Below are positions 21,452 through 59,200 of a stretch of DNA of 64,000 nucleotides, piece by piece. The notes under the pieces were generated by a model, which saw only the letters and a list, made by a program, of their open reading frames with translations, was not told the DNA's origin and made no database searches. The DNA comes from Naegleria gruberi. Lineage: Eukaryota. The stretch's first letter is position 1. Each line of letters opens with the position of its first letter. The stretch is from assembly GCA_000004985.1 (NCBI GenBank), contig GG738899.1; one strand, given 5' to 3'. A program made the position numbers and the translations under genes.

Positions 21452-24241
21452 TTAATTTTTGATATCCATTTCAGAGAACATGTCTATTTCATCCCAATTT
21501 GAGTTTTCGACATTTTCTTCCTCTTGCAGTATCTTTGAAAGATTACTTTCTTTTGGAGGTTCTTCTTCTTGTGGTGCAGTTGGCAGAGTTGGTTCTGGTT
21601 TCACTTGACTCTGTGTAATCTTTGATTTTGGAGGTTTTCTTTTACCACCTCTTGATGATGGGCTAGCTGTTGTTTTTGTTGTTCCAGCAGTTGGTTTTGG
21701 TGAAGTTTGGACAGTTTTAGGTGTGCTTTCTTGTTCCTTTGAGAAATCTTTGAAGAAATCTTCTTCCTCATCGTGTGGTGTGTATGAATCATCTTCCATA
21801 CTATCAAATCCAAGACCCTTCTTCTTCTTTTGGGAGGAGCTGGCTGAACTTGGAGATGGTTGAGGGTTGTTTTGCACAATTGTTGTTTCTTGTGGAATAG
21901 CTTTAACTGTTTCAACAACTTGAACAGACTTTTCTTCATCATCTGACCAATTCTTCCATTCCTCGTCTTCGCTGTGGGCTGGACTAGAATGGGATTGAGT
22001 CTGTTGAGCTACAGCTTCAATAGACTTGTTGGATGCTGTTTTGATTAATTGTAGTCTTGATTGTTGTTGAGATTCTACTTGAGCTTCAGGTGTCTTCTCT
22101 TGTGGTTGAGGATTGAATTCTTTCTTGACAACTGCTGGGGAAGACGGTGGAGTATTTTCAGTAGAACGTCCACCTTCATCTATTGAAGATTTTGATTGTT
22201 GATCACTTTCAGAGAATTGGATTACATGTTTTGGAGATTGACCAGAGAAGATTTCAACTCGAACAAGTTCTTTTTGAGATTGTGGAGGGAAGAATGGTGT
22301 AACATTTGTAATACCATCATTTGCTGAGGTAATCATTCCTAAATTACATCGGGAAAGATCAGATTCTGACAAGTACTCTAATGCAACTTTCATTACTTGG
22401 GTAGCTTTTGATCTGACTTGTTCCTTTTCATGGAGAGTTAATGGAAGTACAGGTTTCATTACATAGGTCATGAGTTCTCTTGGATCAAATCTCGACATGT
22501 GAATTAAAATTACATTCAAAGCGTGTACTTTGAGTTCTGAAATATCCTTATCAAACAAGTTAGAGTGTAAAGCTGTTAAAATTATTCCCTTATTGGCTCC
22601 AGGTAAATTCCATAATTCCAAAAGGCATAAAAGAGCATGAGATCTCAAAGCAATAACACTTTCAATGGCTTTTTCCTTATCAACTTCTTGGCCAATTCTA
22701 GGGAATGAGTTTTGTACAGCATAATGATGAAGGGAAGGAAGGAATTGATTATTAATAATTTCTATTCCAGTGGTGGATTGAGTAGATTGATCAAGTTTGG
22801 AAAGGTACTTGGAGAAGGCTACACAGGCATTCATAGTGAACATGACAAGTTCATTACTAGAGTCTTTGATGGCCTTCATTATTTCTGGAATAACTTCTGA
22901 AATGGCTACACTAGGAGGAATTTGATTTTGATAATATTCCAAGGTTTGAAGTATCCTAATTCTTAAACTATAATTCTTACTAATATAACATTTACGAATA
23001 AAAGTAAGAATGTGCTCATCGTAATCCTTGCCAGATAAGATACCATCAATTCCTCTCTTGGATGACTCTTTAGCTGAGAACAAGTGAGCCAAAAAGGTAC
23101 CTGAGGCAGGCTCTGTAACGAACGGAAGAGTTGTCATTCTTGGCAAAATTCTCTTTTTAAAAAGTGAAAGAGACAATTTGTTAACTTGGCTCTTGAGTTC
23201 CTTAAAGAAAGATTCCTTTTCAGATGCCTTTTTCAATCTCATATCATCAAAGAATAGCATAATGCTACAGAGTGGATCTTGTTCAAAAAGTTTCAGTTTT
23301 AAAAAGCTGGCAAAGGTAGCTCTTGATTGAGGTTCACTTTCAAGTGCCTTTGACATCCAAAATTTGATGGCTGGTAATTTCAAAAAAGATTGATAGTTAA
23401 CTTCGTTAGGAACGTTATTCTTCTTGCAGCTTTCTTCAATTTCTGCGAATATCTTGGATACTAATTTTTCAAAAGCATATACATCTCTACATGTACTTGT
23501 ATATTTTTGGAATTTCTTCATTCCTTCTTCTGGAGTAATAGTTTCAGAGTATCTAATTTCCTTAGTATTTTCGTAAAAATCCTTATCAATATTACTAAAT
23601 TCCATAGCAAATTGGAAATCACCAAGCATCCACCTCATTTGTTTATCTTTTGTCACATAAACAGAATCCAAATGAACATTATTAAATGTAATTTGGCATT
23701 GATCGTTCAAAAAATTGAGAGCACTCTGAAAAAGATGTGAGATGACTATTCAAACTAAAATACTCACAGATATTTGAAGTAATCCCAACAAAATTTCCGA
23801 CATTTCCAATGATGGCAAAACAGATCTGAGGGGTACAACAGGCTCTGTAGCTATATAAAAGTGTGAATTATTCAACTCAATGTCATCAACATATTTCAAA
23901 ATTGATGGATGTCTAAGAGTTTTTAAAAACTTCATTCCTCTTCTAGCACACTCAATAATTGTTTTTGCAGGTTCCTCATCCAATGGTGAAATTTTAGTTT
24001 TTGGCTTTTCCGCAGTTTGATTATCATTTTCATTCTTTTGTTGTCTCAAAATCTTTGGTAAATCTTTAGCTTGTTTATCCGTTAATTCAAATTCAAAAAC
24101 AGAAACATTTCTATTATCACTTTGAACATTCTTCTGAAAAACACCATCATATAATTTCCAAAATTTAAATCTCTTATCCGTATCAACCAATGGAACTGGT
24201 TGGAGGGATGAAAACTTTTGTGAGACGTTAGAATTTCCCAT
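21452..24241 (-). CDS. SCY1-like protein (kinase-like N-terminus plus HEAT repeats, acidic S/T/P-rich tail), 2 exons
   Basis: Exon 1 is 23768-24241 (MGNSN...GMKFLKTLRHPSILKYVDDIE...FYIATEPVVPL, compare SCYL1 FKRFKTLRHPNILAYID). A 42-nt intron (gtgagt...ttttcag) follows. Exon 2 is 21452-23725 and continues SALNFLNDQCQITFNNVH (SCYL1 ALSFLVNDCSLIHNNV). It contains HEAT-like helices and ends in an acidic tail ...NSNWDEIDMFSEMDIKN*. Confidence 0.8.
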
Positions 24242-29176: not shown

Positions 29177-32100
29177 ATGCCAGAAGTAATTACCAGCAGC
29201 ACTGTTGGTAGAACAGCTTTCGGTCCCAACCTTTCCTTGTTGAAGGTAAGTTATTACTCATTTACATCTCGCAGTAATTTTTTTTTGACTTTCTAATAAC
29301 AAACAAACTAAGAACTTCAAAATGAACATGTTGAAAATAATATATAGGGTGGTACAATCTCTCAAACAATTGTTGGTTTAATAGTTTCTGCTTCTGTTGT
29401 TGCCTCTCTCGTTGTTACCATTGTAATGATTAGTGTTGGTGCAGGTGTTCAAAATCCAACATTGAAACCAGACTATTATGAACTTTACAAAAAGACACCA
29501 TCAAAACTCTATCCTCTTCTCAATGATATTGATCCAAGAGGTGGTAATTTGACAATTTTAAATGTTACTCAACCATTACATGGTAAAGCTGTGTTATCTT
29601 CTGCTGGCATGGTTATTTATACAAGTATTGGTTCTTATGCTGGTAATGATACTTTCGAATATTCGGTTACTAATGGATGGACAACTGCGACTGAACATGT
29701 TTATCTTAGTATTTTGAATCGTGCTCCAGAAGTAGTTGACATGACATATACTGTTAATAAGAATTCAAAGAAAAATTCATTTGATTTATTTGGATATGAA
29801 AGTGAAATGGGTGCTAAAATTAAGGATATTGACGGTGATGATTTATCTATTACTGACATTATTCTAGTTTCTCCTAATGTTGGTAGTTTAATCTCATTCG
29901 ATCAAAATTACTTGTACTATACTCCTGCTTATGGTTTTAATAATATTGAATTACTTAACTATACAATCTCAGATGGTTATGCCAATGTTTCAGGTGTCAT
30001 TACTATTAATGTTGCCAATGATAAACCAACAGCTGAACCTGACACTTATACCATTACAAAGAATGCTTTGGGTACTTTTAATATTCTAGATAATGATTTT
30101 GATATTAATGGTGATAACATTTCAATTACCACTGCTGGTTTAGGTTCATCTGGTGTTGTTTTAATTTCCTCTGATAATTCAAATATCGAATATATTCCAA
30201 AGCCATTTGTAGCTCCATATACTGATGCTTTTGAATATGAAATCACTGATGGAGCTTTGACAAGTTCTAGTTATGTTTTTGTAAAGATTGTCAATTCTCC
30301 TCCAACTGTTTCTGATAAGGTTTTCAATGTTGCAAAGAATTCAAAGAATAATCTTTTAGATTTGACATTCTCTGATCCAGATGTACTTGATACTGTTACC
30401 TTGACAGCTGTTAGTAAGCTTGCTCGTGGTAATTCCTCATTGTCTGTTACTAGCTCAATGGCATCTGTTTATTATCCAACAGGTGACTTTTTACAAGTTA
30501 AGAAGAATTTGTACTCTCTTGTTTATACACCAGATCAAGGTGTTATTTATACTGATTCCTTTAAGGTCAAAGTTAGTGATGGTGTGGATGTTGCTTATGC
30601 CACCATTACTATTAATGTAGTTCCTTCTCCTCCTGTTCCTGTTAATGATACTGTCACTTGTCAAAAGAATGGACAAGTCTCTCTTGATGTTATCAGTAAT
30701 GATTATAGTGCTTCTGGTGATGTTTTGAAATTGAATTTTGCATCATCTACTTCCAATTTTGGTGGTAAACTTGTTAAGATTGATGATAATAATGTAAAAT
30801 ATGAGCCAGCTAAAGGATTCCTTGGTCAAGATGAAGCTCAATACATTGTTATTAACACTAACACTGATGGATCTAGTGAAGGTACTTTCAATAGAGAGGG
30901 ATATGTTCTTGTTAATGTTGTGAACTCACCTCCAGTTGCTGTTCCATTAACTTTGACAGTTTCAAAGGGTTTGACAAGTGCTCTTAATTTATTAAGAGAT
31001 AGTTATGATCCAAATGGTGATTCTATTAATTATAATAGTATTGCTAAGAGTACTTATGGAGTTTCATTGTCCTTCACTTCTGGTAATGCAAATGTTAATT
31101 ATGCTGCCTTGTCATCTGTCTACGTTGATTATGTTGACTTTACTGTTGTTGATATTGATGGAGCTATTTCACAAGTTGCTACAGCTACCATTAACGTTGT
31201 TAATGATGCTCCTGTTCCAGTTGATGATACTGCTGCTGTTTCTTGGAATAGAAGTATTGTCATTGATGTTTTGGCAAATGACAAGGATGTTAATGGTGAT
31301 TCTCTAAGTGTTAAGAGTGTTAGTTATACTTCTAATAATGGTGCAACTGTTACTGTTCATCAAGGTGGTAAAACTGTTCTCTACACTCCAAAGGATGGAT
31401 TTGTAGGAAATGATACCTTCTCCTATGTTTGTTTTGATGGAATTGATTCATCTGTCACTTCTGGATTGGTGACAGTTGTTGTTAGTAATACTGCTCCATC
31501 TACTTCTCCAGTTACTGTTAGTGTTCATTGGAGAGATTCTTCAGTTATTATTCCAGTATTGACCTATGCCAGTGATATTGATGGTGATTCTCTTCATGTT
31601 GAATCTTTCACACAAGGATCAAAGGGATCTGTTTCACGTGTTACACTTACTGATGGTACAGATGGTTTGCAATTTACTACTTCTGGGTCAAATAACTATG
31701 TTGGAAGTGATTCTTTTACTTTTGTTGTTAGTGATTATGGTAAATCAAGTGTTGGAAGTGTCAACATTCAAATTACTGACACTGCTCCTGTTGCCAATGC
31801 TGATTCATTCTCAATGCATTGGAGATCAACTGATAATGTTTTATCTGTTCTTGCTAATGATGTCGATGCTAATATTGATCCAATTACTGTCAAATCATTT
31901 ACTAAACCACAAGGTTTTACTGGAACACTTGTCAATGTTAATTCTCATTTGACATTTACACCAAGTGCTTCAAGTGTTGGTACTCAAACATTTACTTACA
32001 CTGCTACTGATGGTCCATCAACAAGTAATGATGCTACTGTCACATTAACTGTTACCAATAAGGATATTCCACAAGATAAGACAATTTCCAAGACTGTTCA

Positions 32101-35100
32101 CTGGTCAACTCAATCAACTGGTACTACTATTACCATTTTCTCAAGTGCCAATCCAGTTGATACTGATGGTGATTCATTGAGTATTTCTTCTACTCTTGTT
32201 TCTCCTTCAAGTGGTTCAATTACAATTTCCAATTCTGATATTCCAAGTGTTGTTTACAAACAAAATACTGGATTCCTTGGAACTGATACTTTCAAGATTC
32301 AAATCTCTGATGGTGCTGCTACTGCTATTGTTACCATTTCTGTTACTGTTTATGATAATGCTCCATTGTCTAATGATATTTCTGAAAATAGACATTTTAC
32401 TGAAGTTAGTAATGGATATACTAAGAATGCAATTTCATTCTTCAATGTTACTGATATCGATTCTCAAGATAGTGTCACTGTTAAGGATGCTACTGTTGGA
32501 TCTTGTGGTTCTGTCTCAAAGACTTCTTCAACTGTCACATTCACAAGTAATAAGGGAAGTGTTGGTGTTTGTACTGTAACTATCACATTTACTGATGGTC
32601 TATTGAATTCTGTATCCAAGTGGAATGTCAATGTTCAAAATCAAGATCCTTCTGCCGCACCAATTAGCACTACCGTTCACTGGAGTAAGAGTCAAGCTAT
32701 TATTGACATTATGTCAACTTTGTCTGATGCTGATAATGATGCCTTGTCTTATTCAGTTTCATCTTATGATTCCACATTCGGTAGCCCATCTATCAATTCT
32801 GATAAGGCTCTCGTATGGACTCTTCCACAAACACCAAAATTAGGAACAACTCAAATTGTAATTTCATTCACAGATGGATGGGTCAGTAAGACTGCTTCTT
32901 ATCCATTGATTGTTCAAAACGTTGCACCAACTGCAGTTGCAAAGACAATTTCATCAAAGTGGTCTGCATGTCTTTCTGGTATTACTATTGATATTTTGAG
33001 TGAATGCTCAGATAATGACGGAGATAGTTTGTCATTTGACAGTACTACGCCAATTGTTACTGCTCCAGCTCAAGGAAGTGCTTCAATTGTTTCTTCAAAG
33101 GTTTATTACAAACAATCAACTGCTTCTGTTGGTTCTTATTCCATTACTTACAAGATTACTGATGGTATTCAAACTTCATCAAACTCTATTACTGTCAATT
33201 GTGAAGATAATGCTCCTGTTGCTAATGCTGATTCAATTACTGTTAATTGGAATACCTCTGATGTCGATATTACTATTTTGTCTAACGATATTGATTCAGA
33301 TAATGATATTCTTTCTGTCACTAATCTTTCAGCTGTCAGTGAAGGTTCTTTAACTAATTTAGGTACTTTTGTTAAATATACTTTGAAGAAACCACCAACC
33401 CTTTCTGACAAGACATTCACCTATAAGGCATTCGACGGAGCTCTCTATTCCTCTGCTGCAACTGTCACTGTCAAAGTTGTCAATGCCAACAAGCCACAAA
33501 TTAGTGATCAAAGTACAACTGCTCACTGGAGAACTGTCAAGGATGGTGTTTCATACACTGTCTATGATACTCTTACCGATGCTGATGGTGATTATTATTC
33601 ACTTTCATTTGGTAGTGGTTCAAGTGCTTATTGTTCACTTATTGACCTTTCGAATGGTATTAAGGGTGTTAAATATACTAGAAATGCATTCGATTCCACT
33701 GATTCTTGTAAAGTAGTTCTCTCTGATGGATTCAGTACAAGTGCTGCCACATTAACAACCAACTCTTACAATAATGTTCCAGTTGCTGCCAACTTTACTT
33801 TAGATTATTCTGGTGGTAATATTCAATATGGTATTTCAATTGATGTTTTGTCATCTGCTACAGATGCTGATATTCAAGATGTTCCATTCCTTTCCATTTT
33901 AAGTGTTGGAAATTCCAAATTATATGGTAGTGAAGCTGCAAATATTGTAAATGGACAAGTTTTCTATTTCCCAGATCAATCATTAGTTAAAGCATTGGGT
34001 ACTGATACTGTTGCTTATACTATTAGTGATGGTTTATCAACATCTATTGGTTATCTCACTATTAACATCAAGTCAACTTCTCCATCCAGTACTGAACAAT
34101 ATTACAATGTTCATTTTAGATATTCAAGTGTTGGTTATGTTTTCACACCATTGACAAAGATTGCAGATGCCACTAAACTTGATACTACTGTTGTTCAAGG
34201 AAGTGAACCAAATCAAGGTGGTTCAGTTGTTGTTTCTAGTGTTGATGAAAAGACAGTTACTTACAAACCATCTGGTTCCTATTTAGGTAATGAAATTTTC
34301 AAGTTAAAGTATTATACTGCTAGTGGTAGTAGTGATATTACTTTTACAATGAATATTTATGATACTGCTCCAATTGCTCAATCACTTTCTGGTTCAGTTC
34401 ATTTTGGTAAATCAACAACATTCAATTTAACTGCTTCAACTTCAGATGCTGATCCATTGGATGTCAATAATTTGTCATTCTCAATTACTGGTCAACCATC
34501 TCAAGGATCTTTGAGTGTTTCATCAAATATTGCCACTTATACTGCATCATCAACTGTTGGAACCTATTCTGGTATTTACAGAGTTTCAGATTCTATGAAA
34601 TCTTCTACTGGTTCTATTACTTTGACTGTAACTAATACTGTTCCTACTTCACAAACTAAAACCATTTCAGTTCCTTGGAGAACTTTCAAGGCAGGTTTTA
34701 ATATTGATGTCTTGAATTTAGCACCAGCTGATTTTGATAATGATGGAGATGAGTTGAGTTTGGTTTCAATTGCTCTTCAACCATCAGTTGGTTCAGTAAC
34801 TAAATTGGATAGTAAGAGAGTTAGTATTGTTGGTTCAGGAAACTTTGTTGGTTCACTTACATTCAAATACATTGTTAGTGATGGTGCCTCAAATGGTCAA
34901 GTCACAACCACAGTTAACTTGAATGTTTACAACACTGCTCCAGTTGGTATTCCAGATAAGCTCTCTACCCACTGGAATGTTGCCTCAAAGACATTGAATG
35001 TTATTGCCAATGACACTGATGCTGAATCAGATCCTTTAACTGTCACATCCGTTTATGGATCTTTAGCTTCAACTGCTCCAACTTTCACTTCTGATAGTAT

Positions 35101-38100
35101 TGTCTATTATCCAAAGAATGCTCCATCAACAGATACAGTTTATTATACAGTTTCTGATAATGTTGCTACATCTATTTCATATGTCACTGTTACTGTAACT
35201 AACACTGCTCCAACTACAACTTCTCAATCATTTGTTGGTTCTTGGTCTTCAGCTAAGAATGGTTTAACATTTGACGTTGTTTCTACTTCTTCTGATGCTA
35301 ATGGAGATTCATTGTCATTGCAATCATGCTCTTCATCAGTTACTTCCTCTCAAGGTAATGTCACTTGTTCTGGAAATGTCAAATTCACTCCAGCCAGTGG
35401 TTTCGTTGGTAGTATCAACCCAATCAGTTATATTATCACTGATGGTAGAGACACTGTCACTGGTACTGTTTCCATTACAATTTTGAATAATGCTCCTACT
35501 GCTAATACTACAAATACTTTCAGATATCATTGGAGAAGTGTTTTGAGTAATACTGTTATTGATCTTTCTTCATATCTCAAAGATGCTGATGGTGATGCTG
35601 TTACTTTGACAGCTGTCACAAAGACACTTGTTGGTGTTGCTTCTCTTGGATCAGGAAATACCATTAACTATAAGGTTAATAGTGCTTACACTGGTACTGA
35701 TTCAGTCACTGTCTCATTCACTGATGGATGGTCAACTTCAAGTGCCACTTTCAATATTGTAATTTACAATAACGCTCCTGTTGCTCAAAATATCATTACT
35801 TCAACTCACTTGGCAACTTTGAACATTCCTGTGATTGGATCTGGTTCAAATCAACCAACAGATGCTGATGGAAGTGTTGATCTTAATAATTTAGTCATTT
35901 CTTCATTCTCAAATCCATCAGTTGGAAGTGTTTCTTTGAGTGGTGATAAGAAATCATTCACATTCACTAACGTTGCTGGAAATGTTGCCACTCAAACATT
36001 TACCTATGTCGTTTCAGATGGAAAGGATACTTCTGCATCAAAGACTGTTACAATTTCCATTACAAACAATGCACCATCTGCAACTCCAATTACCATTTCT
36101 AAACATTGGGCTACAGTACAAGGTGGATTAGATATTAATTTATTGTCTGTTGTAACTGATTCTGATGGTGATTCTCTTTCAATTACTTCATTCACTCAAA
36201 CAAATAATGGAGCTGTTTCTTCAATCAATTCAACATCTGTCAAGTATATTCCAACACCATTGACTGCTGGTTTCACAACTTCATTCACCTATTCAGTTTA
36301 TGATGGTTATACTACAATTTCAAATACTGTTACAATTTCAATTACCAATACACCACCTGTTGCAGTTGATGATACCATCACTGTTCACTGGACCAATAAT
36401 ACATTGTATTTGAAACCAGTTGTGAATGATTATGATTTGGATAATGATTACATTTATATTAACAAATTGTATCCATCTCAATTTATGAATGCCTATGCAT
36501 CAATGGGTAATTATATCATCATTTCAAAGGGAACAACTATTGTTAATAACTTTGCAAGTGTTGTCGTTCCTGGAAGCGTTGCAACTGCTGGATTTGTTAA
36601 TCAAGTTCTTCAACCAACTGGCTCACTAAATGTTAATAATGCTGCTCAACTTGCCATTGTTAATGCTGCTACTAATTTGTATCAATCATTGAGTTTATAT
36701 ACTTGTACTGCTTCATTAGATCAATCATTCCCATCTTCAAATGTTTTGAGTTTCTCACCTGGTGTCTATTGTTTCCCACAAGGTTTATCTGGTTCTGGTA
36801 CCATCTTGTTGAGTGGTTCAGGTCTTTACATTTTCAGTATTTCCACTAATTTGAATGCTAACTTCCAATGGTCATTCACAAATGGAGCTAGTGCTTCAAA
36901 TGTTTATTGGTTGGTTGGTGCTGCTGGTATTTCAGGAACTTTCTATGGTCATGTTTTGAGTAATGGTCAACTCAATTTCAATAATGTTGTTCAAAATGGT
37001 GTTATTATGAGTTTAGGATCAAATTCAATGAGTTTGAATAGTGTTACTTTTGGTTCCGTTGTTATTCCAACTGGACAAACTGCCTTGGAATTACAATCTG
37101 ACAAGTTGACTGTCTATTATAAGAATACTTTCATTAATGGACCAGCAACTGACTCATTCCAATACACAATTACTGATCAAATTGCCACTTCTAATGTTGC
37201 TATTGTCAAATTGGTCTTTACCAATACTGCTCCAGTTGCCACTTCATTCTCAGCTGGTAAAGTTACATGGAAAAATACCTTAACAACTGCAAGTGTTGTT
37301 TCCAAGTATTGTTCTGATGCTGATAAGGATTCATTGAGTTTATTCGGAGTTACTCAAGGTAAATACGGAACTACTACAGTTACCGATTCTACAAGTGGTA
37401 CCATTGTTTATACACCAAGTAGTTCAATTTCCTATACCTCTGTTGATTCCAATGGAGCTAGTTATGTAACTGATCAAATTACTTTTGGATGTTATGATGG
37501 AGCTCAAGTTACATATAACACATTCTCTGTTGTCGTTTACAATACAGCTCCAAAGAGTGCTTCTAAATCACTTAGTGTTCAAAGAGATACTTCAAATCCA
37601 ACTGTTACATTGAATGATTTGTTGGTTGGTGCTACAGATGCTGAGGGTGATTCAATTTCTGTATCAAGTGTTTCAATGATTTCACAAAATACTGGTGCTT
37701 CTGTCTTGTTATCATCCAATACTGCTAAACTCACTTACATAACTTCATATTTAGGTTCAATTGTCTTTTCATTCACTTTAACTGATGGTCAATTGAGTTC
37801 AACTTATAATTATAATGTCACTATTACTGGTGCTCCATTCTATTGTGTTGATTATACCATTAGTACTACCAAAGATTCCTCTGCTGTCACTTTCGAAACT
37901 GATTTAAAGTCTAAATTGTCAAGCTATTGTGTTAATGATGTTTGTACTTTGGCTCTTGCTTCAACTGCATCACTCAATGGAGTTGGTTCAATTGCTGCCA
38001 ATGGTAATAACTTGTTGACATATACTCAAAATTCCAAGTCATCATCAAATGGAGAATCCTATTCCACTTACTCATATTCTAATAGGGCAGGTCAAAGCGC

Positions 38101-40450
38101 AATTTGTAAGATTATCATTAATCAACCAAATAATGCACCAACTGTCTATGATTATACTTATAGTTACTCAATTAGTAGAGCTTCTAATGATTATGTTACA
38201 TTTGATTATGTTAGTTTATCATCCTCTGATGATCCAGATGCTTCTGACTCAATTGTATTGAGTAGTATTTCAAGTGTTGGTACATGTACAACTAGTTCTA
38301 TCAGTAGTTTGTCAATTACTAGTGATAACCAAATCAAATTCTTGAGAAATCCATCATTCATTGGAAGTTGTTCATTCTCTTTGGTTGTTTCTGATAGTGA
38401 TTTGAGAAATCCAATCTCTAAAACTGCAAAAATTACAATCAATGCCATTTCTTCTCCACCAGTTGCTGTCAATGATGCTGTTTCTACAACCTATAACACA
38501 TATATTGATATTCCAGTTTCCACATTACTTGGAAACGATTATGATTCACTTGGTGGTACATTCTCATTCACTGGTATTAATTGCCCAACAGGTGATTCAA
38601 CTTATTGTACAGCAGGCACTCCAACTATTCTCAATCCATCTGATCCTGCAAATACAAGAATCATCAGAGTTCAACCAATTAAGGGATCTTGTAATTCTCA
38701 AAAATTCGTTTATGGTATCAAATCTGATTCTGATTCAACAACTGCCACAGCTATTGTTACAGTTTCTTATACCAAATGTACATGTTCTTTGAATATGGAT
38801 ATTGTATTTGTTTTGGATGGTAGTTCATCTATTGATGCAGGAAATTGGATTAACATGCAAAACTTTGCATCCAATTTAACTGTTGGATTTGGTTCAAACA
38901 TTTCACCAACTGCCACCAAGATTGGTATCATTCAATTCTCTACAACAACTGTAACTCACTTGGATTTGAAAGATGGTACTTCCAAGACAGCTGTTCTTAA
39001 TGCCATTTCATCAGCTGGTCAACTCAAATCCAGTACCAACTCAATTTTAGGTATTAACAATGCTGTTTCAATGGTTTTAAGTCAAGGTAGAAAGGATATC
39101 ACTAGAAAACTCTTAATTCACATTACAGATGGTATGTCCAATTTACCTTGTGGTATGGGAGCTTGTCGTGCCATGTATGGTAGTGATAAGTCATTATATG
39201 GATCTGTTCCTAATTATTGTAAGTCACCTCGTTTCCCAGGTACTGATGCAACAATATGCTCATGGAATGAACCACTCAGTAGATGTAATCCTTGTTCTGA
39301 TGCTACTCTTAGATCAACTGATTTGAATTCTTGGACAGTTGGAGGTGCTTCAAATCCAGAAAAATCAACTTATGGATCTATTTGGAATTGGAGACAATTA
39401 GTTGTAGGTATTGGTGATGGTTTGAGTTCTGGGTATGGACAACTTCAAATTCAAAAGATGAATTACGATCCAAACAATTTAATTGTTGTCGATTGGTCTG
39501 ATTTGAGCTCTGTTTATCAAACTGTTATTGATAATAGTTGTAATCTTGTCGATTCCACTCAAACCAACGTTCTTGTTCCACTTTCAAGTTCTGGATATTC
39601 TATTCAATATCTTGGAAAGACATTGTCCAAATCAAGTTACCTTAATTATGAAGCAACCATTTCAACATTCACTTATCGTGTTAGTGTCTCTTCATCAGCA
39701 CCTGCTTTACAAAGATTTACCTTAGGATTACAACCTGGTTACAATCAAGATAACTTTGTAAATTATGATCCATACTTCCCAGTTTTCATTGGTCAAGACA
39801 CTACCACTAATTTGAATGGTTTCACTTTCTTATCACTTCCAAATTCATATACAATTGCAGCTGGTTCATCAGATACCTATACATTGAGTATTGCTGGTGA
39901 TATTCCTGAAGGTGTTATTACTTATGGTATGTCGGGTGGTTCACAATACACACAAGGAACTGTTAAGGGACCAAGTGGAGTGATCAACTCAACCACAGTT
40001 GCTCTTCCACCAAATATTAATTACGGTGATGATTCAAGTTATAGAACTACCTATTGTTCCTCAACCAAATGTTATTTCTTTACCAAGATGAATTATGCCT
40101 ATCGTATTGAAGCAATGAGTAAGATTTGTAAATATTGGTCTGCCAATGCAACACTAGTTCAAATTCAATCATCCACTGAAAAGACCACACTCATCAATAA
40201 TGTTTTACCTTACGATGAGAGTGCTACCTTCTTCTTAGGTACTAAGGATTCCGATATTGCAGTTGGATCAACAACTACATGGCAAGATGGTACATCCATG
40301 TCCTCCTATACAAATTATCAAAGCAAACAACCTGGTTCCTACACTATTATTTATGCTTCATATAATGCTAATTCTCCAACTGGTACTTGGTGGAAGGGAG
40401 GTAGTTATGATACCAACACTCAATATTTACTTTGTCAATTTAAGAAATAA
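29177..40450 (+). CDS. Giant (about 3700 aa) membrane-anchored adhesin-like protein: tandem bacterial-type cadherin-like/VCBS repeats, ice-binding-like (DUF3494) domain, vWA domain and C-terminal C-type lectin domain
   Basis: Exon 1 is 29177-29245 (MPEVITSSTVGRTAFGPNLSLLK, then gtaagt). After a 102-nt intron it rejoins in frame at 29348 (GGTISQTIVGLIVSASVVASLVVTIVMISVGAG, a TM anchor), continuing as one uninterrupted 11.1-kb exon to the TAA at 40448. The ectodomain has about 25-30 tandem 95-100-aa repeats of consensus ..AP.A.(D/N)...TV......(I/L)(D/N)VL.ND.D..GD.L.(I/V)......G.......V.Y.P..GF.G.D.F.Y...DG......V.I.V.N. Named domains are annotated separately below. Confidence 0.8.
36485..37100 (+). 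other. Ice-binding-like (DUF3494/IBP-1 family) domain within the giant adhesin
   Basis: The region reads ...AAQLAIVNAATNLYQSLSLYTCTASL...LSFSPGVYCF...GTILLSGSGLYIFSISTNLNANFQWSFTNGASASNVYWLVGAAGISGTFYGHVLSNGQLNFNNVVQNGVIMSLGSNSMSLNSVT. This follows the DUF3494 pattern A..DL..AY..L....CT...L.....L.PGVY.F......G.L.LD..G....FIFQ.GS.L.......V.L.NGA.A.NVFWQVGS.A.......F.G.IL.....T......NGR.LA. Confidence 0.55.
38805..39150 (+). other. von Willebrand factor type A (vWA) domain within the giant adhesin
   Basis: It has the MIDAS-type start DIVFVLDGSSSIDAGNW. This is followed by ...IGIIQFSTTTVTHLDLKDG...LLIHITDGMSN, which fits the DxSxS...T...D vWA topology. Confidence 0.7.
40040..40447 (+). other. 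C-type lectin-like domain at the C-terminus of the giant adhesin
   Basis: The region reads CYFFTKMNYAYRIEAMSKICKYWSANATLVQIQSSTEKTTLINNVL...FFLGTKD...WQDGTSMSSYTNYQSKQPG...WWKGGSYDTNTQYLLCQFKK. This matches the CTLD pattern C..YF.....W.EA...C.......L..I.S..E..F.......WIGL.D....W.W.DG....Y.NW...QP.......C......W....C.....YICE. Confidence 0.65.
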
Positions 40451-40614: not shown

Positions 40615-41253
40615 ATGATTAAGCTTGCCATTGCTCTCATTCTCCTTGTTGGATGGATCACCTTGTTGGTCCAATCGAAGGATGTTAAATTTTGCATGCC
40701 TCCTATTGCTTCCTTCACACAAACCACGAAACATGTTTCATATTATGGAACGGCCAGAAATTCCTCCTACAAGCTCAAAATTCAATACGATAGTAATTTG
40801 AATAAGCAACGCACAGATACTTATGAACAAGATGGCACCTTGATCTCATCTGTAATTTCCTTACTAGATGCCTCTAATAATACCATTCTCTATTCCATAA
40901 AGAATAATGAATGTTCCTGTATTAATGAAGGTCAGACCGATGGAGCTATTTGGGCTCAATGTATAACTCAACCAGTTTTAGCTAAGGAAACTATTGCTGA
41001 ACAACCAGCTCTCAAAGTTGGATACAACACTACAAATTCTCAATGGACTAATGATGAATATTATTGGATTGTTCCAGCTAGAGAACCAGGTTATTGGTGG
41101 TTCCTTTCACAAATTGAATATGTTATTGATAGGAATAATGTTGAATTGGGAAGTAGTACTTTTTCTGATCATACTCCTAATGTGAATTATCTTTCACTTG
41201 TTGTTCCAACTAATTGTCCTTCAATGGGTGATTGTCCATCTCCAAGAAGATGA
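40615..41253 (+). CDS. Secreted hypothetical protein
   Basis: 212-aa ORF with a signal peptide (MIKLAIALILLVGWITLLVQS). Composition is Cys-poor and Asn/Thr/Tyr/Trp-containing. No domain recognised. Confidence 0.4.
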   Translation: MIKLAIALILLVGWITLLVQSKDVKFCMPPIASFTQTTKHVSYYGTARNSSYKLKIQYDSNLNKQRTDTYEQDGTLISSVISLLDASNNTILYSIKNNECSCINEGQTDGAIWAQCITQPVLAKETIAEQPALKVGYNTTNSQWTNDEYYWIVPAREPGYWWFLSQIEYVIDRNNVELGSSTFSDHTPNVNYLSLVVPTNCPSMGDCPSPRR

Positions 41254-54440: not shown

Positions 54441-54636
54441 TTTTTATTATTTGAATTTTATTATTACTACTTGGTTGACGACGTATTTTGTTTATCATCA
54501 TACACGTGTTTTTATTTCGAAAATAATGACAATAGGTTTTATTACACTCTTACAACATTGATGATTTATTAGAAAAGCCTAATTGNNNNNNNNNNNNNNN
54601 NNNNNNNNNNNNNNNNNNNNNNNNNNNNNNNNNNNN

Positions 54637-56201
54637 GTGATTCAACTTATTGTACAGCAGGCACTCCAACTATTCTCAATCCATCTGATCCTGCAAATAC
54701 AAGAATCATCAGAGTTCAACCAATTAAGGGATCTTGTAATTCTCAAAAATTCGTTTATGGTATCAAATCTGATTCTGATTCAACAACTGCCACAGCTATT
54801 GTTACAGTTTCTTATACCAAATGTACATGTTCTTTGAATATGGATATTGTATTTGTTTTGGATGGTAGTTCATCTATTGATGCAGGAAATTGGATTAACA
54901 TGCAAAACTTTGCATCCAATTTAACTGTTGGATTTGGTTCAAACATTTCACCAACTGCCACCAAGATTGGTATCATTCAATTCTCTACAACAACTGTAAC
55001 TCACTTGGATTTGAAAGATGGTACTTCCAAGACAGCTGTTCTTAATGCCATTTCATCAGCTGGTCAACTCAAATCCAGTACCAACTCAATTTTAGGTATT
55101 AACAATGCTGTTTCAATGGTTTTAAGTCAAGGTAGAAAGGATATCACTAGAAAACTCTTAATTCACATTACAGATGGTATGTCCAATTTACCTTGTGGTA
55201 TGGGAGCTTGTCGTGCCATGTATGGTAGTGATAAGTCATTATATGGATCTGTTCCTAATTATTGTAAATCACCTCGTTTCCCAGGTACTGATGCAACAAT
55301 ATGCTCATGGAATGAGCCACTCAGTAGATGTAATCCTTGTTCTGATGCTACTCTTAGATCAACTGATTTGAATTCTTGGACAGTTGGAGGTGCTTCAAAT
55401 CCAGAAAAATCAACTTATGGATCTATTTGGAATTGGAGACAATTAGTTGTAGGTATTGGTGATGGTTTGAGTTCAGGGTATGGACAACTTCAAATTCAAA
55501 AGATGAATTACGATCCAAACAATTTAATTGTTGTCGATTGGTCTGATTTGAGCTCTGTTTATCAAACTGTTATTGATAATAGTTGTAATCTTGTCGATTC
55601 CACTCAAACCAACGTTCTTGTTCCACTTTCAAGTTCTGGATATTCTATTCAATATCTTGGAAAGACATTGTCCAAATCAAGTTACCTTAATTATGAAGCA
55701 ACCATTTCAACATTCACTTATCGTGTTAGTGTCTCTTCATCAGCACCTGCTTTACAAAGATTTACCTTAGGATTACAACCTGGTTACAATCAAGATAACT
55801 TTGTAAATTATGATCCATACTTCCCAGTTTTCATTGGTCAAGACACTACCACTAATTTGAATGGTTTCACTTTCTTATCACTTCCAAATTCATATACAAT
55901 TGCAGCTGGTTCATCAGATACCTATACATTGAGTATTGCTGGTGATATTCCTGAAGGTGTTATTACTTATGGTATGTCGGGTGGTTCACAATACACACAA
56001 GGAACTGTTAAGGGACCAAGTGGAGTGATCAACTCAACCACAGTTGCTCTTCCACCAAATATTAATTACGGTGATGATTCAAGTTATAGAACTACCTATT
56101 GTTCCTCAACCAAATGTTATTTCTTTACCAAGATGAATTATGCCTATCGTATTGAAGCAATGAGTAAGATTTGTAAATATTGGTCTGCCAATGCAACACT
56201 A
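54637..56201 (+). repeat. Near-identical duplicate (over 99.8 percent) of 38592-40156, the vWA to C-type-lectin part of the giant adhesin gene, bounded by assembly gaps
   Basis: The 1565-nt collinear match has an offset of 16045. Only about 3 substitutions were seen by eye, e.g. tattgtaaGtcacc versus tattgtaaAtcacc. N runs lie at 54586-54636 and 56202-64000. Confidence 0.9.
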
Positions 56202-59200
56202 NNNNNNNNNNNNNNNNNNNNNNNNNNNNNNNNNNNNNNNNNNNNNNNNNNNNNNNNNNNNNNNNNNNNNNNNNNNNNNNNNNNNNNNNNNNNNNNNNNN
56301 NNNNNNNNNNNNNNNNNNNNNNNNNNNNNNNNNNNNNNNNNNNNNNNNNNNNNNNNNNNNNNNNNNNNNNNNNNNNNNNNNNNNNNNNNNNNNNNNNNNN
56401 NNNNNNNNNNNNNNNNNNNNNNNNNNNNNNNNNNNNNNNNNNNNNNNNNNNNNNNNNNNNNNNNNNNNNNNNNNNNNNNNNNNNNNNNNNNNNNNNNNNN
56501 NNNNNNNNNNNNNNNNNNNNNNNNNNNNNNNNNNNNNNNNNNNNNNNNNNNNNNNNNNNNNNNNNNNNNNNNNNNNNNNNNNNNNNNNNNNNNNNNNNNN
56601 NNNNNNNNNNNNNNNNNNNNNNNNNNNNNNNNNNNNNNNNNNNNNNNNNNNNNNNNNNNNNNNNNNNNNNNNNNNNNNNNNNNNNNNNNNNNNNNNNNNN
56701 NNNNNNNNNNNNNNNNNNNNNNNNNNNNNNNNNNNNNNNNNNNNNNNNNNNNNNNNNNNNNNNNNNNNNNNNNNNNNNNNNNNNNNNNNNNNNNNNNNNN
56801 NNNNNNNNNNNNNNNNNNNNNNNNNNNNNNNNNNNNNNNNNNNNNNNNNNNNNNNNNNNNNNNNNNNNNNNNNNNNNNNNNNNNNNNNNNNNNNNNNNNN
56901 NNNNNNNNNNNNNNNNNNNNNNNNNNNNNNNNNNNNNNNNNNNNNNNNNNNNNNNNNNNNNNNNNNNNNNNNNNNNNNNNNNNNNNNNNNNNNNNNNNNN
57001 NNNNNNNNNNNNNNNNNNNNNNNNNNNNNNNNNNNNNNNNNNNNNNNNNNNNNNNNNNNNNNNNNNNNNNNNNNNNNNNNNNNNNNNNNNNNNNNNNNNN
57101 NNNNNNNNNNNNNNNNNNNNNNNNNNNNNNNNNNNNNNNNNNNNNNNNNNNNNNNNNNNNNNNNNNNNNNNNNNNNNNNNNNNNNNNNNNNNNNNNNNNN
57201 NNNNNNNNNNNNNNNNNNNNNNNNNNNNNNNNNNNNNNNNNNNNNNNNNNNNNNNNNNNNNNNNNNNNNNNNNNNNNNNNNNNNNNNNNNNNNNNNNNNN
57301 NNNNNNNNNNNNNNNNNNNNNNNNNNNNNNNNNNNNNNNNNNNNNNNNNNNNNNNNNNNNNNNNNNNNNNNNNNNNNNNNNNNNNNNNNNNNNNNNNNNN
57401 NNNNNNNNNNNNNNNNNNNNNNNNNNNNNNNNNNNNNNNNNNNNNNNNNNNNNNNNNNNNNNNNNNNNNNNNNNNNNNNNNNNNNNNNNNNNNNNNNNNN
57501 NNNNNNNNNNNNNNNNNNNNNNNNNNNNNNNNNNNNNNNNNNNNNNNNNNNNNNNNNNNNNNNNNNNNNNNNNNNNNNNNNNNNNNNNNNNNNNNNNNNN
57601 NNNNNNNNNNNNNNNNNNNNNNNNNNNNNNNNNNNNNNNNNNNNNNNNNNNNNNNNNNNNNNNNNNNNNNNNNNNNNNNNNNNNNNNNNNNNNNNNNNNN
57701 NNNNNNNNNNNNNNNNNNNNNNNNNNNNNNNNNNNNNNNNNNNNNNNNNNNNNNNNNNNNNNNNNNNNNNNNNNNNNNNNNNNNNNNNNNNNNNNNNNNN
57801 NNNNNNNNNNNNNNNNNNNNNNNNNNNNNNNNNNNNNNNNNNNNNNNNNNNNNNNNNNNNNNNNNNNNNNNNNNNNNNNNNNNNNNNNNNNNNNNNNNNN
57901 NNNNNNNNNNNNNNNNNNNNNNNNNNNNNNNNNNNNNNNNNNNNNNNNNNNNNNNNNNNNNNNNNNNNNNNNNNNNNNNNNNNNNNNNNNNNNNNNNNNN
58001 NNNNNNNNNNNNNNNNNNNNNNNNNNNNNNNNNNNNNNNNNNNNNNNNNNNNNNNNNNNNNNNNNNNNNNNNNNNNNNNNNNNNNNNNNNNNNNNNNNNN
58101 NNNNNNNNNNNNNNNNNNNNNNNNNNNNNNNNNNNNNNNNNNNNNNNNNNNNNNNNNNNNNNNNNNNNNNNNNNNNNNNNNNNNNNNNNNNNNNNNNNNN
58201 NNNNNNNNNNNNNNNNNNNNNNNNNNNNNNNNNNNNNNNNNNNNNNNNNNNNNNNNNNNNNNNNNNNNNNNNNNNNNNNNNNNNNNNNNNNNNNNNNNNN
58301 NNNNNNNNNNNNNNNNNNNNNNNNNNNNNNNNNNNNNNNNNNNNNNNNNNNNNNNNNNNNNNNNNNNNNNNNNNNNNNNNNNNNNNNNNNNNNNNNNNNN
58401 NNNNNNNNNNNNNNNNNNNNNNNNNNNNNNNNNNNNNNNNNNNNNNNNNNNNNNNNNNNNNNNNNNNNNNNNNNNNNNNNNNNNNNNNNNNNNNNNNNNN
58501 NNNNNNNNNNNNNNNNNNNNNNNNNNNNNNNNNNNNNNNNNNNNNNNNNNNNNNNNNNNNNNNNNNNNNNNNNNNNNNNNNNNNNNNNNNNNNNNNNNNN
58601 NNNNNNNNNNNNNNNNNNNNNNNNNNNNNNNNNNNNNNNNNNNNNNNNNNNNNNNNNNNNNNNNNNNNNNNNNNNNNNNNNNNNNNNNNNNNNNNNNNNN
58701 NNNNNNNNNNNNNNNNNNNNNNNNNNNNNNNNNNNNNNNNNNNNNNNNNNNNNNNNNNNNNNNNNNNNNNNNNNNNNNNNNNNNNNNNNNNNNNNNNNNN
58801 NNNNNNNNNNNNNNNNNNNNNNNNNNNNNNNNNNNNNNNNNNNNNNNNNNNNNNNNNNNNNNNNNNNNNNNNNNNNNNNNNNNNNNNNNNNNNNNNNNNN
58901 NNNNNNNNNNNNNNNNNNNNNNNNNNNNNNNNNNNNNNNNNNNNNNNNNNNNNNNNNNNNNNNNNNNNNNNNNNNNNNNNNNNNNNNNNNNNNNNNNNNN
59001 NNNNNNNNNNNNNNNNNNNNNNNNNNNNNNNNNNNNNNNNNNNNNNNNNNNNNNNNNNNNNNNNNNNNNNNNNNNNNNNNNNNNNNNNNNNNNNNNNNNN
59101 NNNNNNNNNNNNNNNNNNNNNNNNNNNNNNNNNNNNNNNNNNNNNNNNNNNNNNNNNNNNNNNNNNNNNNNNNNNNNNNNNNNNNNNNNNNNNNNNNNNN

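What the first reader, a model, noticed from the sequence alone, without database searches (positions are those of the whole stretch)
36485..37100. Ice-binding-like (DUF3494) domain embedded in a eukaryotic adhesin
The segment AAQLAIVNAATNLYQSLSLYTCTASL..PGVYCF..GTILLSGSGLYIFSISTNL..FTNGASASNVYWLVGAAGISGTFYGHVLSNGQLNF..NGVIMSLGSNSMSLN reproduces the ordered conserved blocks of the bacterial/fungal IBP-1 (DUF3494) beta-helix: A..L..AY..L, PGVY.F, FIFQ.GS.L, NGA.A.NVFWQVG and G.IL. This fold is known from ice-binding and antifreeze proteins and from bacterial adhesins. Finding it inside a giant repeat protein of a soil amoeba is unusual. It could point to ice or surface binding, or to horizontal acquisition.
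Basis: partly seen in the sequence, partly recalled or inferred. Interest (0 to 1): 0.7.

Follow-up and report, generated by a model that had tools for sequence, protein, structure and literature searches.

The report
Ice-binding-like domain in Naegleria adhesin
A giant cell-surface protein of the amoeba Naegleria gruberi carries a real ice-binding-protein-type (DUF3494) domain that buds out of one of its 30 Ig-like repeats, as bacterial fibre adhesins display their ligand-binding domains, and it probably binds something other than ice.

Summary

The host is Naegleria gruberi (XP_002672240.1), not a dictyostelid. The gene sits among ordinary eukaryotic genes and has a 5' intron. The domain's GC3 matches the rest of the gene.

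The protein is about 3,723 aa. It has an N-terminal membrane anchor, 30 Big_9/cadherin-like repeats, a VWA domain and a weakly lectin-like C-terminus. The DUF3494 domain is nested inside repeat 25, which it splits in two. Bacterial RTX adhesins project their ligand-binding domains from split domains in the same way.

The domain belongs to a divergent, eukaryote-type DUF3494 clade. In other proteins this clade is fused to a PhoPQ-related hydrolase, EGF-REJ receptors and a subtilase. It lacks FfIBP-type ice-binding motifs and is poor in threonine.

Most likely it is a non-ice surface- or ligand-binding module of an adhesin. Ice binding is not excluded. This is a new variant of a known kind, of moderate interest.

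The parts
29177..29245 (+). Exon 1 (23 codons, MPEVITSSTVGRTAFGPNLSLLK), the short N-terminal cytoplasmic tail
   Evidence: Read from the sequence. Identical to the start of the annotated protein P0002 = XP_002672240.1.
29246..29347 (+). 102-nt spliceosomal intron (GTAAGT...TATAG)
   Evidence: Joining exons 1 and 2 reproduces residues 1-658 of the annotated protein exactly.
29348..40450 (+). Exon 2: an uninterrupted reading frame to the stop codon. With exon 1 it gives a 3,723-aa protein.
29369..29449 (+). The only strongly hydrophobic segment (IVGLIVSASVVASLVVTIVMISVGAGV), an inferred signal-anchor or type II transmembrane helix
   Evidence: Kyte-Doolittle 19-residue windows above 1.6 occur only at residues 26-59 (maximum 2.66). 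The topology is inferred.
29450..36316 (+). 24 tandem Big_9 / Cadherin_4/5 beta-sandwich repeats (the extender stalk), many with a DxDxDGD-type acidic loop
   Evidence: Pfam Big_9 E=1e-187 with 26 stretches. Self-built repeat HMM table. Acidic-loop motif count.
36329..36478 (+). N-terminal half of repeat 25, the split domain (ORF aa 2302-2351; repeat-HMM positions 1-50)
36479..37069 (+). The 197-aa DUF3494 / IBP-1-like beta-solenoid inserted in the loop of repeat 25 (ORF aa 2352-2548). The Pfam PF11999 match covers 36533-37015.
   Evidence: homology and fold. (boundaries). (composition).
37070..37189 (+). C-terminal half of repeat 25 (ORF aa 2549-2588), which completes the split domain
37205..38764 (+). 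Repeats 26-30 (five more Big_9-like domains)
38798..39142 (+). von Willebrand factor A domain with a MIDAS-like DGSSS...T...D pattern
   Evidence: Pfam VWA E=4.7e-20. Sequence read.
39143..39988 (+). About 280 aa with no family assignment
   Evidence: No Pfam hit at E<=1.
39989..40447 (+). C-terminal 153 aa, weakly similar to C-type lectins
   Evidence: phmmer against the PDB finds snake C-type lectins 3ubu and 6xfq at E=0.03-0.04 only. Pfam is silent.

Best explanation
The segment encodes a true but divergent DUF3494 (IBP-1 fold) beta-solenoid. It is nested in a loop of the 25th of 30 Ig-like (Big_9) repeats of a roughly 3,723-aa Naegleria gruberi cell-surface protein. Inferred mechanism: an N-terminal signal-anchor helix holds the protein in the plasma membrane. 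Twenty-four repeats, probably stiffened by calcium, form a stalk on the order of 100 nm long. Near the far end, a split repeat pushes the solenoid sideways off the fibre axis. Five more repeats follow, then a VWA domain and a lectin-like C-terminus. The solenoid would act as one of several ligand- or surface-binding heads of an adhesin, for substratum, prey bacteria or cell-cell contact. It would use a flat solenoid face to bind something other than ice. Shown here: homology, fold, nested position, the remaining domain content, the eukaryotic genomic context, and the paralogue family with varied fusions. Inferred: membrane topology, stalk behaviour, adhesive role and ligand.
Against: There is no experimental or expression evidence. 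No ligand can be named. The ice-binding sites of DUF3494 proteins have no reliable sequence signature, so the absence of FfIBP-type motifs is weak evidence. The first ~46 residues of the model, which include the first coil, have pLDDT below 50. The split-domain geometry is inferred from HMM coordinates only: I could not obtain a model of the two halves packed together, because the alignment attempts with repeats failed. The insert has only 2 charged residues in 197, which is odd for a soluble binding head. No orthologues from other Naegleria species were available to test for selection.
Confidence: 0.6

Rival explanations
1. It is a functional ice-binding head. The protein would be a eukaryotic ice adhesin that tethers the amoeba or cyst to ice or modifies ice growth, like SfIBP_1 or, by analogy, MpIBP.
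For: All strong structural neighbours are proven ice-binding proteins. The tether-plus-head build resembles bacterial ice adhesins (PMC5550230, PMC9957290). The domain is almost uncharged; to my knowledge ice-binding faces tend to be uncharged. To my knowledge the genus Naegleria includes polar species.
Against: To my knowledge N. gruberi NEG-M is a mesophilic soil and freshwater amoeba. There are no T-[AG]-x-[TN] motifs in the core and threonine is 5-7% against a canonical mean of 14%. Clade members are fused to a hydrolase, a protease and EGF-REJ receptors, which do not fit an ice role. Most DUF3494 proteins come from organisms that are not associated with ice (PMC11645318, PMC12337378).
Confidence: 0.12
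2. It is a structural or relic insert with no binding role of its own, for example a rigid spacer or kink in the stalk.
For: It is a divergent member at the edge of Pfam detection and is not reported in a whole-protein scan. The N-terminal coil is modelled with low confidence. The composition is extreme, with 2 charged residues in 197.
Against: The family's core motifs are kept: PGVYCF, NGAxAxNVYW, invariant glycines and the Cys78/Cys100 pair that is invariant in the 92-sequence alignment. The solenoid core is modelled with high confidence. The reading frame is open. Three paralogues are retained in the genome. In bacterial adhesins, domains that bud from split domains are ligand binders (PMC12077191).
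Confidence: 0.15
3. It is a generic beta-helix, for example a pectate- or polysaccharide-lyase-like enzyme domain, that resembles ice-binding proteins only superficially.
Against: There is a two-fold gap in Z (14.6-16.8 for ice-binding proteins against 8.1 or less). The aligned lengths are 172-181 residues against ~100-115. Sequence-level Pfam and PDB hits are to DUF3494 only.
Confidence: 0.02
4. It is bacterial contamination, an assembly chimera, or a very recent horizontal transfer of a bacterial adhesin.
For: Big_9, Cadherin_4/5 and DUF3494 are predominantly bacterial families (Pfam names). The scaffold end holds a suspicious near-identical partial copy of the gene's 3' part.
Against: There is a GT-AG intron at the 5' end and a eukaryotic signal anchor. 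The flanking genes are eukaryotic. GC and GC3 of the insert equal those of the gene. The closest relatives are N. gruberi paralogues and eukaryote-like environmental proteins; among the 150 listed hits, only these and a few short fragments reach about 45% identity or more.
Confidence: 0.02

Closest known systems
Canonical DUF3494 / IBP-1 ice-binding proteins (AnpIBP 7bwx, IBPv 5uyt, ColAFP 3wp9, FfIBP 4nu2, TisAFP 3vn3, LeIBP 3uyu)
   Different: Those are small secreted proteins of ice-associated organisms with threonine-rich ice-binding faces. This one is an internal, nested domain of a 3,723-aa membrane protein in an organism that is not ice-associated, is poor in threonine, lacks FfIBP-type motifs and is nearly uncharged.
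SfIBP_1 of Shewanella frigidimarina (6bg8): tandem Ig-like domains plus DUF3494, a proposed ice adhesin
   Different: SfIBP_1 is bacterial, with far fewer repeats, and its DUF3494 follows the repeats in series. Here the domain is inserted inside a repeat, and further repeats, VWA and a lectin-like domain follow it.
Bacterial RTX (Lap-type) fibrillar adhesins with split domains: AhLap, FrhA, MpIBP
   Same: Same order of parts: N-terminal anchor, long run of Ig-like extenders, and a distal ligand-binding region in which binding domains bud from Ig-like split domains. A VWA domain is present. AhLap even buds a beta-solenoid from a split domain (PMC12077191, PMC10865825, PMC5550230).
   Different: This protein has no RTX nonapeptide repeats and no type I secretion signal. 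The anchor is a eukaryotic transmembrane helix, the gene has an intron, and the budded domain is DUF3494, which is not among the domains those papers report budding from split domains. MpIBP's ice-binding domain belongs to a different family.
Diatom Trailins / Choice-of-Anchor-A (pAdhesive_15, PF20597) domains
   Same: An IBP-fold solenoid used by a temperate eukaryote in extracellular adhesive proteins. That study also judged it non-ice-binding because the ice-binding motifs are absent (bioRxiv 10.1101/2023.03.06.531300).
   Different: It is a different Pfam family with no detectable sequence similarity to PF11999. The Naegleria domain hits PF11999 directly and not PF20597. Trailins are secreted, not membrane-anchored repeat fibres.
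ComZ pilus-tip protein of Thermus thermophilus (6qvi)
   Different: The structural match is much weaker, with 8% identity.

Membership tests
DUF3494 / Ice_binding (Pfam PF11999) | Score above the Pfam gathering threshold | tested here: met
   37.4 bits against a 28.7 cut-off, E=2.7e-9, profile positions 26-196 of 208, when scanned as a 334-aa excerpt. The family is not reported when the whole protein is scanned.
DUF3494 / Ice_binding (Pfam PF11999) | IBP-1 fold: first coil, long alpha-helix, then stacked coils of a three-faced beta-solenoid | tested here: met
DUF3494 / Ice_binding (Pfam PF11999) | Conserved sequence blocks (PGVY.F, NGA.A.NVFW.VG, invariant Gly, Cys pair) | tested here: met
   Alignments A1 and A3: G138, W146 and G159 are invariant in 31 sequences; C78, G97, Y99, C100, G159 and G176 are invariant in 92 sequences.
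Functional ice-binding proteins (activity class) | Ice-binding activity (thermal hysteresis, recrystallisation inhibition, ice shaping) | not testable with these tools
   Needs recombinant protein.
Functional ice-binding proteins (activity class) | FfIBP-type ice-binding motifs T-A/G-x-T/N on the flat face; threonine-rich face | tested here: not met
   No motifs in the solenoid core; the single TGQT lies in the returning Ig strand. Threonine is 5-7% against a canonical mean of 14%. The motif is not universal among ice-binding proteins: 18 of 93 canonical domains also have none.
Functional ice-binding proteins (activity class) | Host organism lives with ice | not tested
   The organism was identified as N. 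gruberi. That it is a mesophile rests on my own knowledge, not on a tool result.
RTX / Lap-type fibrillar adhesins | Long run of tandem Ig-like extender domains | tested here: met
   30 Big_9/Cadherin-like repeats.
RTX / Lap-type fibrillar adhesins | Ligand-binding domain projecting from a split Ig-like domain in the distal region | tested here: met
   Repeat 25 is split, with HMM positions 1-50 and 38-89 on either side of the 197-aa insert. This rests on sequence coordinates only; no 3-D model of the reassembled halves was obtained.
RTX / Lap-type fibrillar adhesins | C-terminal RTX nonapeptide beta-roll and type I secretion signal | tested here: not met
   No GGxGxD/N motif anywhere in the protein. 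The gene is eukaryotic, with an intron and an N-terminal transmembrane anchor. It is therefore not a member; it only works like one.
Choice-of-Anchor-A / pAdhesive_15 (PF20597) | Pfam PF20597 match | tested here: not met
   Only PF11999, and weak Big_9/Cadherin_4 matches from the flanks, are reported at E<=1.

The most novel reading that the evidence does not exclude
Naegleria has built a bacterial-style fibrillar adhesin within a eukaryotic gene: a membrane-anchored stalk of 30 Ig-like repeats that displays a DUF3494 solenoid from a split repeat. It has also turned a divergent, eukaryote-type DUF3494 clade into a general extracellular surface-binding module, re-used on a hydrolase, a protease and EGF-REJ receptors. 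This would be the first split-domain ligand display described outside bacteria. It would also be a concrete case of the long-suspected non-ice function of the DUF3494 fold, possibly in capturing prey bacteria or gripping the substratum.
Probability: 0.35. Interest if true: 0.6.

Novelty: new variant of a known kind. Interest (0 to 1): 0.45.

Why it matters
DUF3494 is the most common microbial ice-binding fold. Most of its members, however, come from organisms that never meet ice, and their function is an open question (PMC11645318, PMC12337378). This protein offers a tractable eukaryotic case. The context (split-domain display on a membrane-anchored repeat fibre, next to a VWA domain) points to adhesion rather than ice, and the same domain type recurs on enzymes and receptors. 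It also suggests that the split-domain rule for spotting ligand-binding domains, worked out for bacterial RTX adhesins, may apply to eukaryotic giant surface proteins. On the practical side, whole-protein Pfam scanning misses the domain, and the RefSeq gene model appears to remove 907 residues of real repeats.

Tried and rejected
1. AlphaFold on the single 334-aa sequence gave pLDDT 37 and was unusable; I replaced it with an alignment-based run.
2. I tried to model the insert together with both half-repeats by adding the gene's other repeats to the alignment. MAFFT spread whole repeats across the insert and misplaced the C-terminal halves, so I abandoned this and modelled only the 208-aa segment.
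3. The search for homologous proteins with the single segment returned one weak hit. The word-indexed search also failed to return the N. gruberi proteins with a clade profile. The exhaustive representative search was needed.
4. The look-up of encoding contigs found no exact record for the 3,674-aa ORF or for a neighbouring ORF. The organism was identified through cluster names instead.
The afdb50 fold library was not available, so I could not survey other eukaryotic proteomes by structure.
6. The first tree attempts failed: one timed out and one produced invalid Kimura distances. I used the Poisson-distance NJ tree with 100 bootstraps.
7. Pfam on the C-terminal 436 aa found nothing. The lectin-like reading rests only on E~0.03 PDB hits and remains a hint.
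8. Literature searches for Naegleria with DUF3494 or ice-binding found nothing relevant.
9. I considered and rejected contamination, a generic beta-helix and a recent transfer; see the rival explanations.

Full report
**What is at the coordinates**

The finding lies inside one very long open reading frame, window 29426-40450 on the + strand (3,674 codons).

A 334-aa excerpt around it hits Pfam PF11999 (Ice_binding, DUF3494) at E=2.7e-9 and 37.4 bits. This is above the curated cut-off of 28.7 and covers profile positions 26-196 of 208. NCBIfam has no match.

phmmer against PDB sequences finds the fungal AnpIBP1a (7bwx, E=4.6e-6), ColAFP (3wp9, 2.9e-4) and SfIBP_1 (6bg8, 0.026). The alignments run through the PGVY, NGAxAxNVFW and later blocks.

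An exhaustive HMMER scan of 1.84 billion representative proteins gives 246 hits at E<=1e-3. Multi-copy DUF3494 proteins such as P0003 (PF11999 E=1e-280) are among the best.

**Fold**

A single-sequence AlphaFold run was useless (pLDDT 37). With a 92-sequence alignment (A3) the 208-aa segment gives pLDDT 73 and pTM 0.74. It has a helix at residues 57-74 followed by a stack of strands, and most of the core is above 85. Residues 1-46 stay below 50.

In Foldseek against the PDB, the 31 hits with E<=1e-3 are all DUF3494 ice-binding proteins: FfIBP, ColAFP, TisAFP, LeIBP, IBPv, SfIBP_1, EfcIBP, FcIBP, AnpIBP and the Cryosericum IBPs. The next hit has E=0.47.

**Organism and gene**

The 208-aa segment queried is 100% identical to a 2,816-aa protein. 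That protein is Naegleria gruberi XP_002672240.1 / EFC39496.1, NAEGRDRAFT_72752, 'predicted protein'. The host is thus a heterolobosean amoeboflagellate, not a dictyostelid.

The gene starts at 29177 with a 23-codon exon. A 102-nt GT-AG intron follows (29246-29347), and then the uninterrupted frame runs to 40450. This N-terminus is identical to the annotated one.

The annotated model removes four in-frame blocks, 907 aa in total, from a frame with no stops. The removed pieces are ordinary repeats, so the real product is probably 3,723 aa.

The neighbouring genes are typical eukaryotic ones: a Band_7 protein, RCC1-repeat protein, TLDc, pseudouridine synthase, UFM1 E3 ligase, NSRP1 and a protein kinase. 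GC (0.350) and GC3 (0.203) of the insert equal those of the rest of the gene (0.348; 0.187, sd 0.029). Contamination and recent transfer are excluded.

**Architecture**

Pfam sees 26 Big_9 / Cadherin_4 / Cadherin_5 stretches and one VWA domain. An HMM built from the protein's own repeats resolves 30 repeats. Eighteen of them carry a DxDxDGD-like acidic loop.

The only strongly hydrophobic stretch in the protein is residues ~31-57, right after a short N-terminal tail. I read it as a signal anchor, which would put the N-terminus inside the cell and the C-terminus outside. This is an inference.

The key point is the position of the DUF3494 domain. Repeat 25 matches the repeat HMM at positions 1-50 with ORF aa 2302-2352, and at positions 38-89 with aa 2532-2588. 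hmmalign shows the break falls in one loop, between '...DYIYINKLYPS' and 'TGQTALELQSDKLTVYY...'. The apparent overlap arises because the last strand of the insert (NSMSLNSVTFGS) mimics the Big_9 strand.

The insert is ORF aa 2352-2548, which is window 36479-37069. The domain is therefore nested in a split Ig-like repeat, not placed between repeats.

After the split repeat come five more repeats, the VWA domain (with a DGSSS...T...D MIDAS-like pattern) and ~280 unassigned residues. The last 153 aa have only weak similarity to C-type lectins.

**What this resembles**

In bacterial RTX (Lap-type) adhesins, ligand-binding domains are recognised by the way they project from Ig-like 'split domains' in the distal region. 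Their N and C termini lie next to each other. In AhLap one such budded domain is itself a beta-solenoid, and a VWA domain lies in the same region (PMC12077191; also PMC10865825).

The DUF3494 fold ends with its final coil next to its initial coil (PMC11645318). This makes it sterically suited to that kind of insertion.

The Naegleria protein has the same order of parts: anchor, extenders, split domain with a budded head, more extenders, then VWA. It has no RTX repeats, uses a eukaryotic membrane anchor and contains an intron. It works like an RTX adhesin but is not a member of that family.

**Relatives of the domain**

The best hits after self are two N. gruberi paralogues:
- NAEGRDRAFT_49989 (47% identity): a PhoPQ-activated pathogenicity-related (PhoPQ_related) domain followed by the domain at the C-terminus.
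- NAEGRDRAFT_61915 (41% identity): EGF repeats, then the domain, then REJ.

Environmental relatives include:
- A subtilase with the domain at its C-terminus (P0009).
- An EGF-REJ protein of the same build (P0038).
- An EGF_CA protein with three copies (P0069).
- Small secreted proteins, Cys-rich or with many N-x-S/T sequons (P0007, P0010, P0011, P0053). P0053 sits beside a eukaryotic-type RdRP.

In an NJ tree of 60 domains, the three Naegleria copies plus P0007 form a clade in 93 of 100 bootstraps. A seven-member eukaryote-type clade has support of 92 of 100 and is separate from the canonical bacterial and archaeal sequences. Several members fall below Pfam detection. Named canonical relatives are 'ice-binding family proteins' of Nitrosotalea, Nitrosopumilaceae, Acidobacteria and others, at about 31-46% identity over partial lengths.

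This pattern fits one old acquisition or inheritance followed by domain shuffling within the lineage. It also fits a general extracellular binding module.

**Is it an ice binder?**

This cannot be decided by sequence. What I could test points away from it.
- The solenoid core has no FfIBP-type T-[AG]-x-[TN] motifs, against a mean of 2.1 in 93 canonical domains (18 of which also have none).
- Threonine is 5-7% against a canonical mean of 14%.
- The same test led others to conclude that the IBP-fold CAA domain of diatom Trailins binds surfaces other than ice (bioRxiv 10.1101/2023.03.06.531300).
- Reviews of the family state that members in organisms not associated with ice may bind other surfaces (PMC11645318), and that DUF3494 occurs in substrate-binding as well as ice-binding proteins (PMC12337378).
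- To my knowledge N. gruberi is a mesophile.

One odd feature remains unexplained. The insert has only 2 charged residues in 197 (1%), against 12.8% for the whole protein and 9-12% in the two N. gruberi paralogues.

**Verdict**

The family and the adhesin-like host protein are correct. The organism is wrong, the nesting was missed, and ice binding and recent transfer are not supported.
- The best explanation (confidence about 0.6) is a non-ice surface- or ligand-binding head displayed from a split repeat of a membrane-anchored fibrillar adhesin.
- Rivals: true ice binding (0.12), structural relic (0.15), generic beta-helix or artefact (0.02 each).
- DUF3494 in eukaryotes and Ig-tethered DUF3494 proteins are known. 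At least one N. gruberi paralogue passes the Pfam threshold, so the family's presence in Naegleria is probably already in the databases.
- I found nothing in the literature on it. I also found no description of a DUF3494 domain budding from a split Ig-like repeat, or of split-domain display in a eukaryote.
- I rate it a new variant of a known kind, of moderate interest.

Noticed in passing
window 54586-56201 (and 56202-64000): After a 51-N gap, 54637-56201 is a near-identical copy (3 mismatches in 1,565 nt) of 38592-40156, the 3' part of the giant gene (last repeat, VWA, C-terminal region). It runs into the scaffold end, and everything from 56202 on is N padding. It is probably an assembly artefact or haplotig, or else a very recent partial duplication.
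   Followed up: partly
window 29177-40450: The RefSeq model XP_002672240.1 (2,816 aa) omits four in-frame blocks (aa 659-756, 827-1043, 1309-1362 and 1677-2217 of the 3,723-aa product). The frame is uninterrupted and the omitted parts are ordinary Big_9 repeats, so these are probably spurious predicted introns.
   Followed up: yes
window 36479-37069: hmmscan of the whole protein, for both the ORF and the RefSeq model, does not report PF11999 even at E<=1. The excised segment scores above the gathering threshold. The domain is therefore probably unannotated in public records of this protein.
   Followed up: partly
window 36479-37069: The insert has only 2 charged residues in 197 (one Lys, one Asp), no N-x-S/T sequons and two cysteines. 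The two N. gruberi paralogues have 9-12% charged residues. This is unexplained.
   Followed up: partly
window 37022-37057: The last strand of the insert (NSMSLNSVTFGS) mimics the Big_9 strand that precedes the insertion point (consensus DSLSVKSVSYTS). As a result the repeat HMM matches positions 38-50 twice. This could be a remnant of how the insertion arose, or chance.
   Followed up: no
window 39989-40447: The C-terminal 153 aa show only weak similarity to snake C-type lectins (3ubu, 6xfq; E=0.03-0.04) and have no Pfam hit. This may be a divergent C-type lectin-like domain.
   Followed up: partly
window 39143-39988: About 280 residues between the VWA domain and the C-terminal domain have no Pfam match at E<=1. 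This is an unassigned domain in the distal, presumably ligand-binding region.
   Followed up: no
proteins P0152, P0005, P0038, P0009, P0069 (not in the window): The same divergent DUF3494 clade is fused to a PhoPQ-related hydrolase and to EGF+REJ in N. gruberi. In environmental, eukaryote-like proteins it is fused to a subtilase and to EGF_CA repeats. The EGF-IBP-REJ build recurs in two clusters that are less than 50% identical.
   Followed up: partly
window 40615-41253 and 21452-23710: Two sizeable ORFs (212 aa on the + strand, 752 aa on the - strand) have no Pfam match at E<=1e-3.
   Followed up: no
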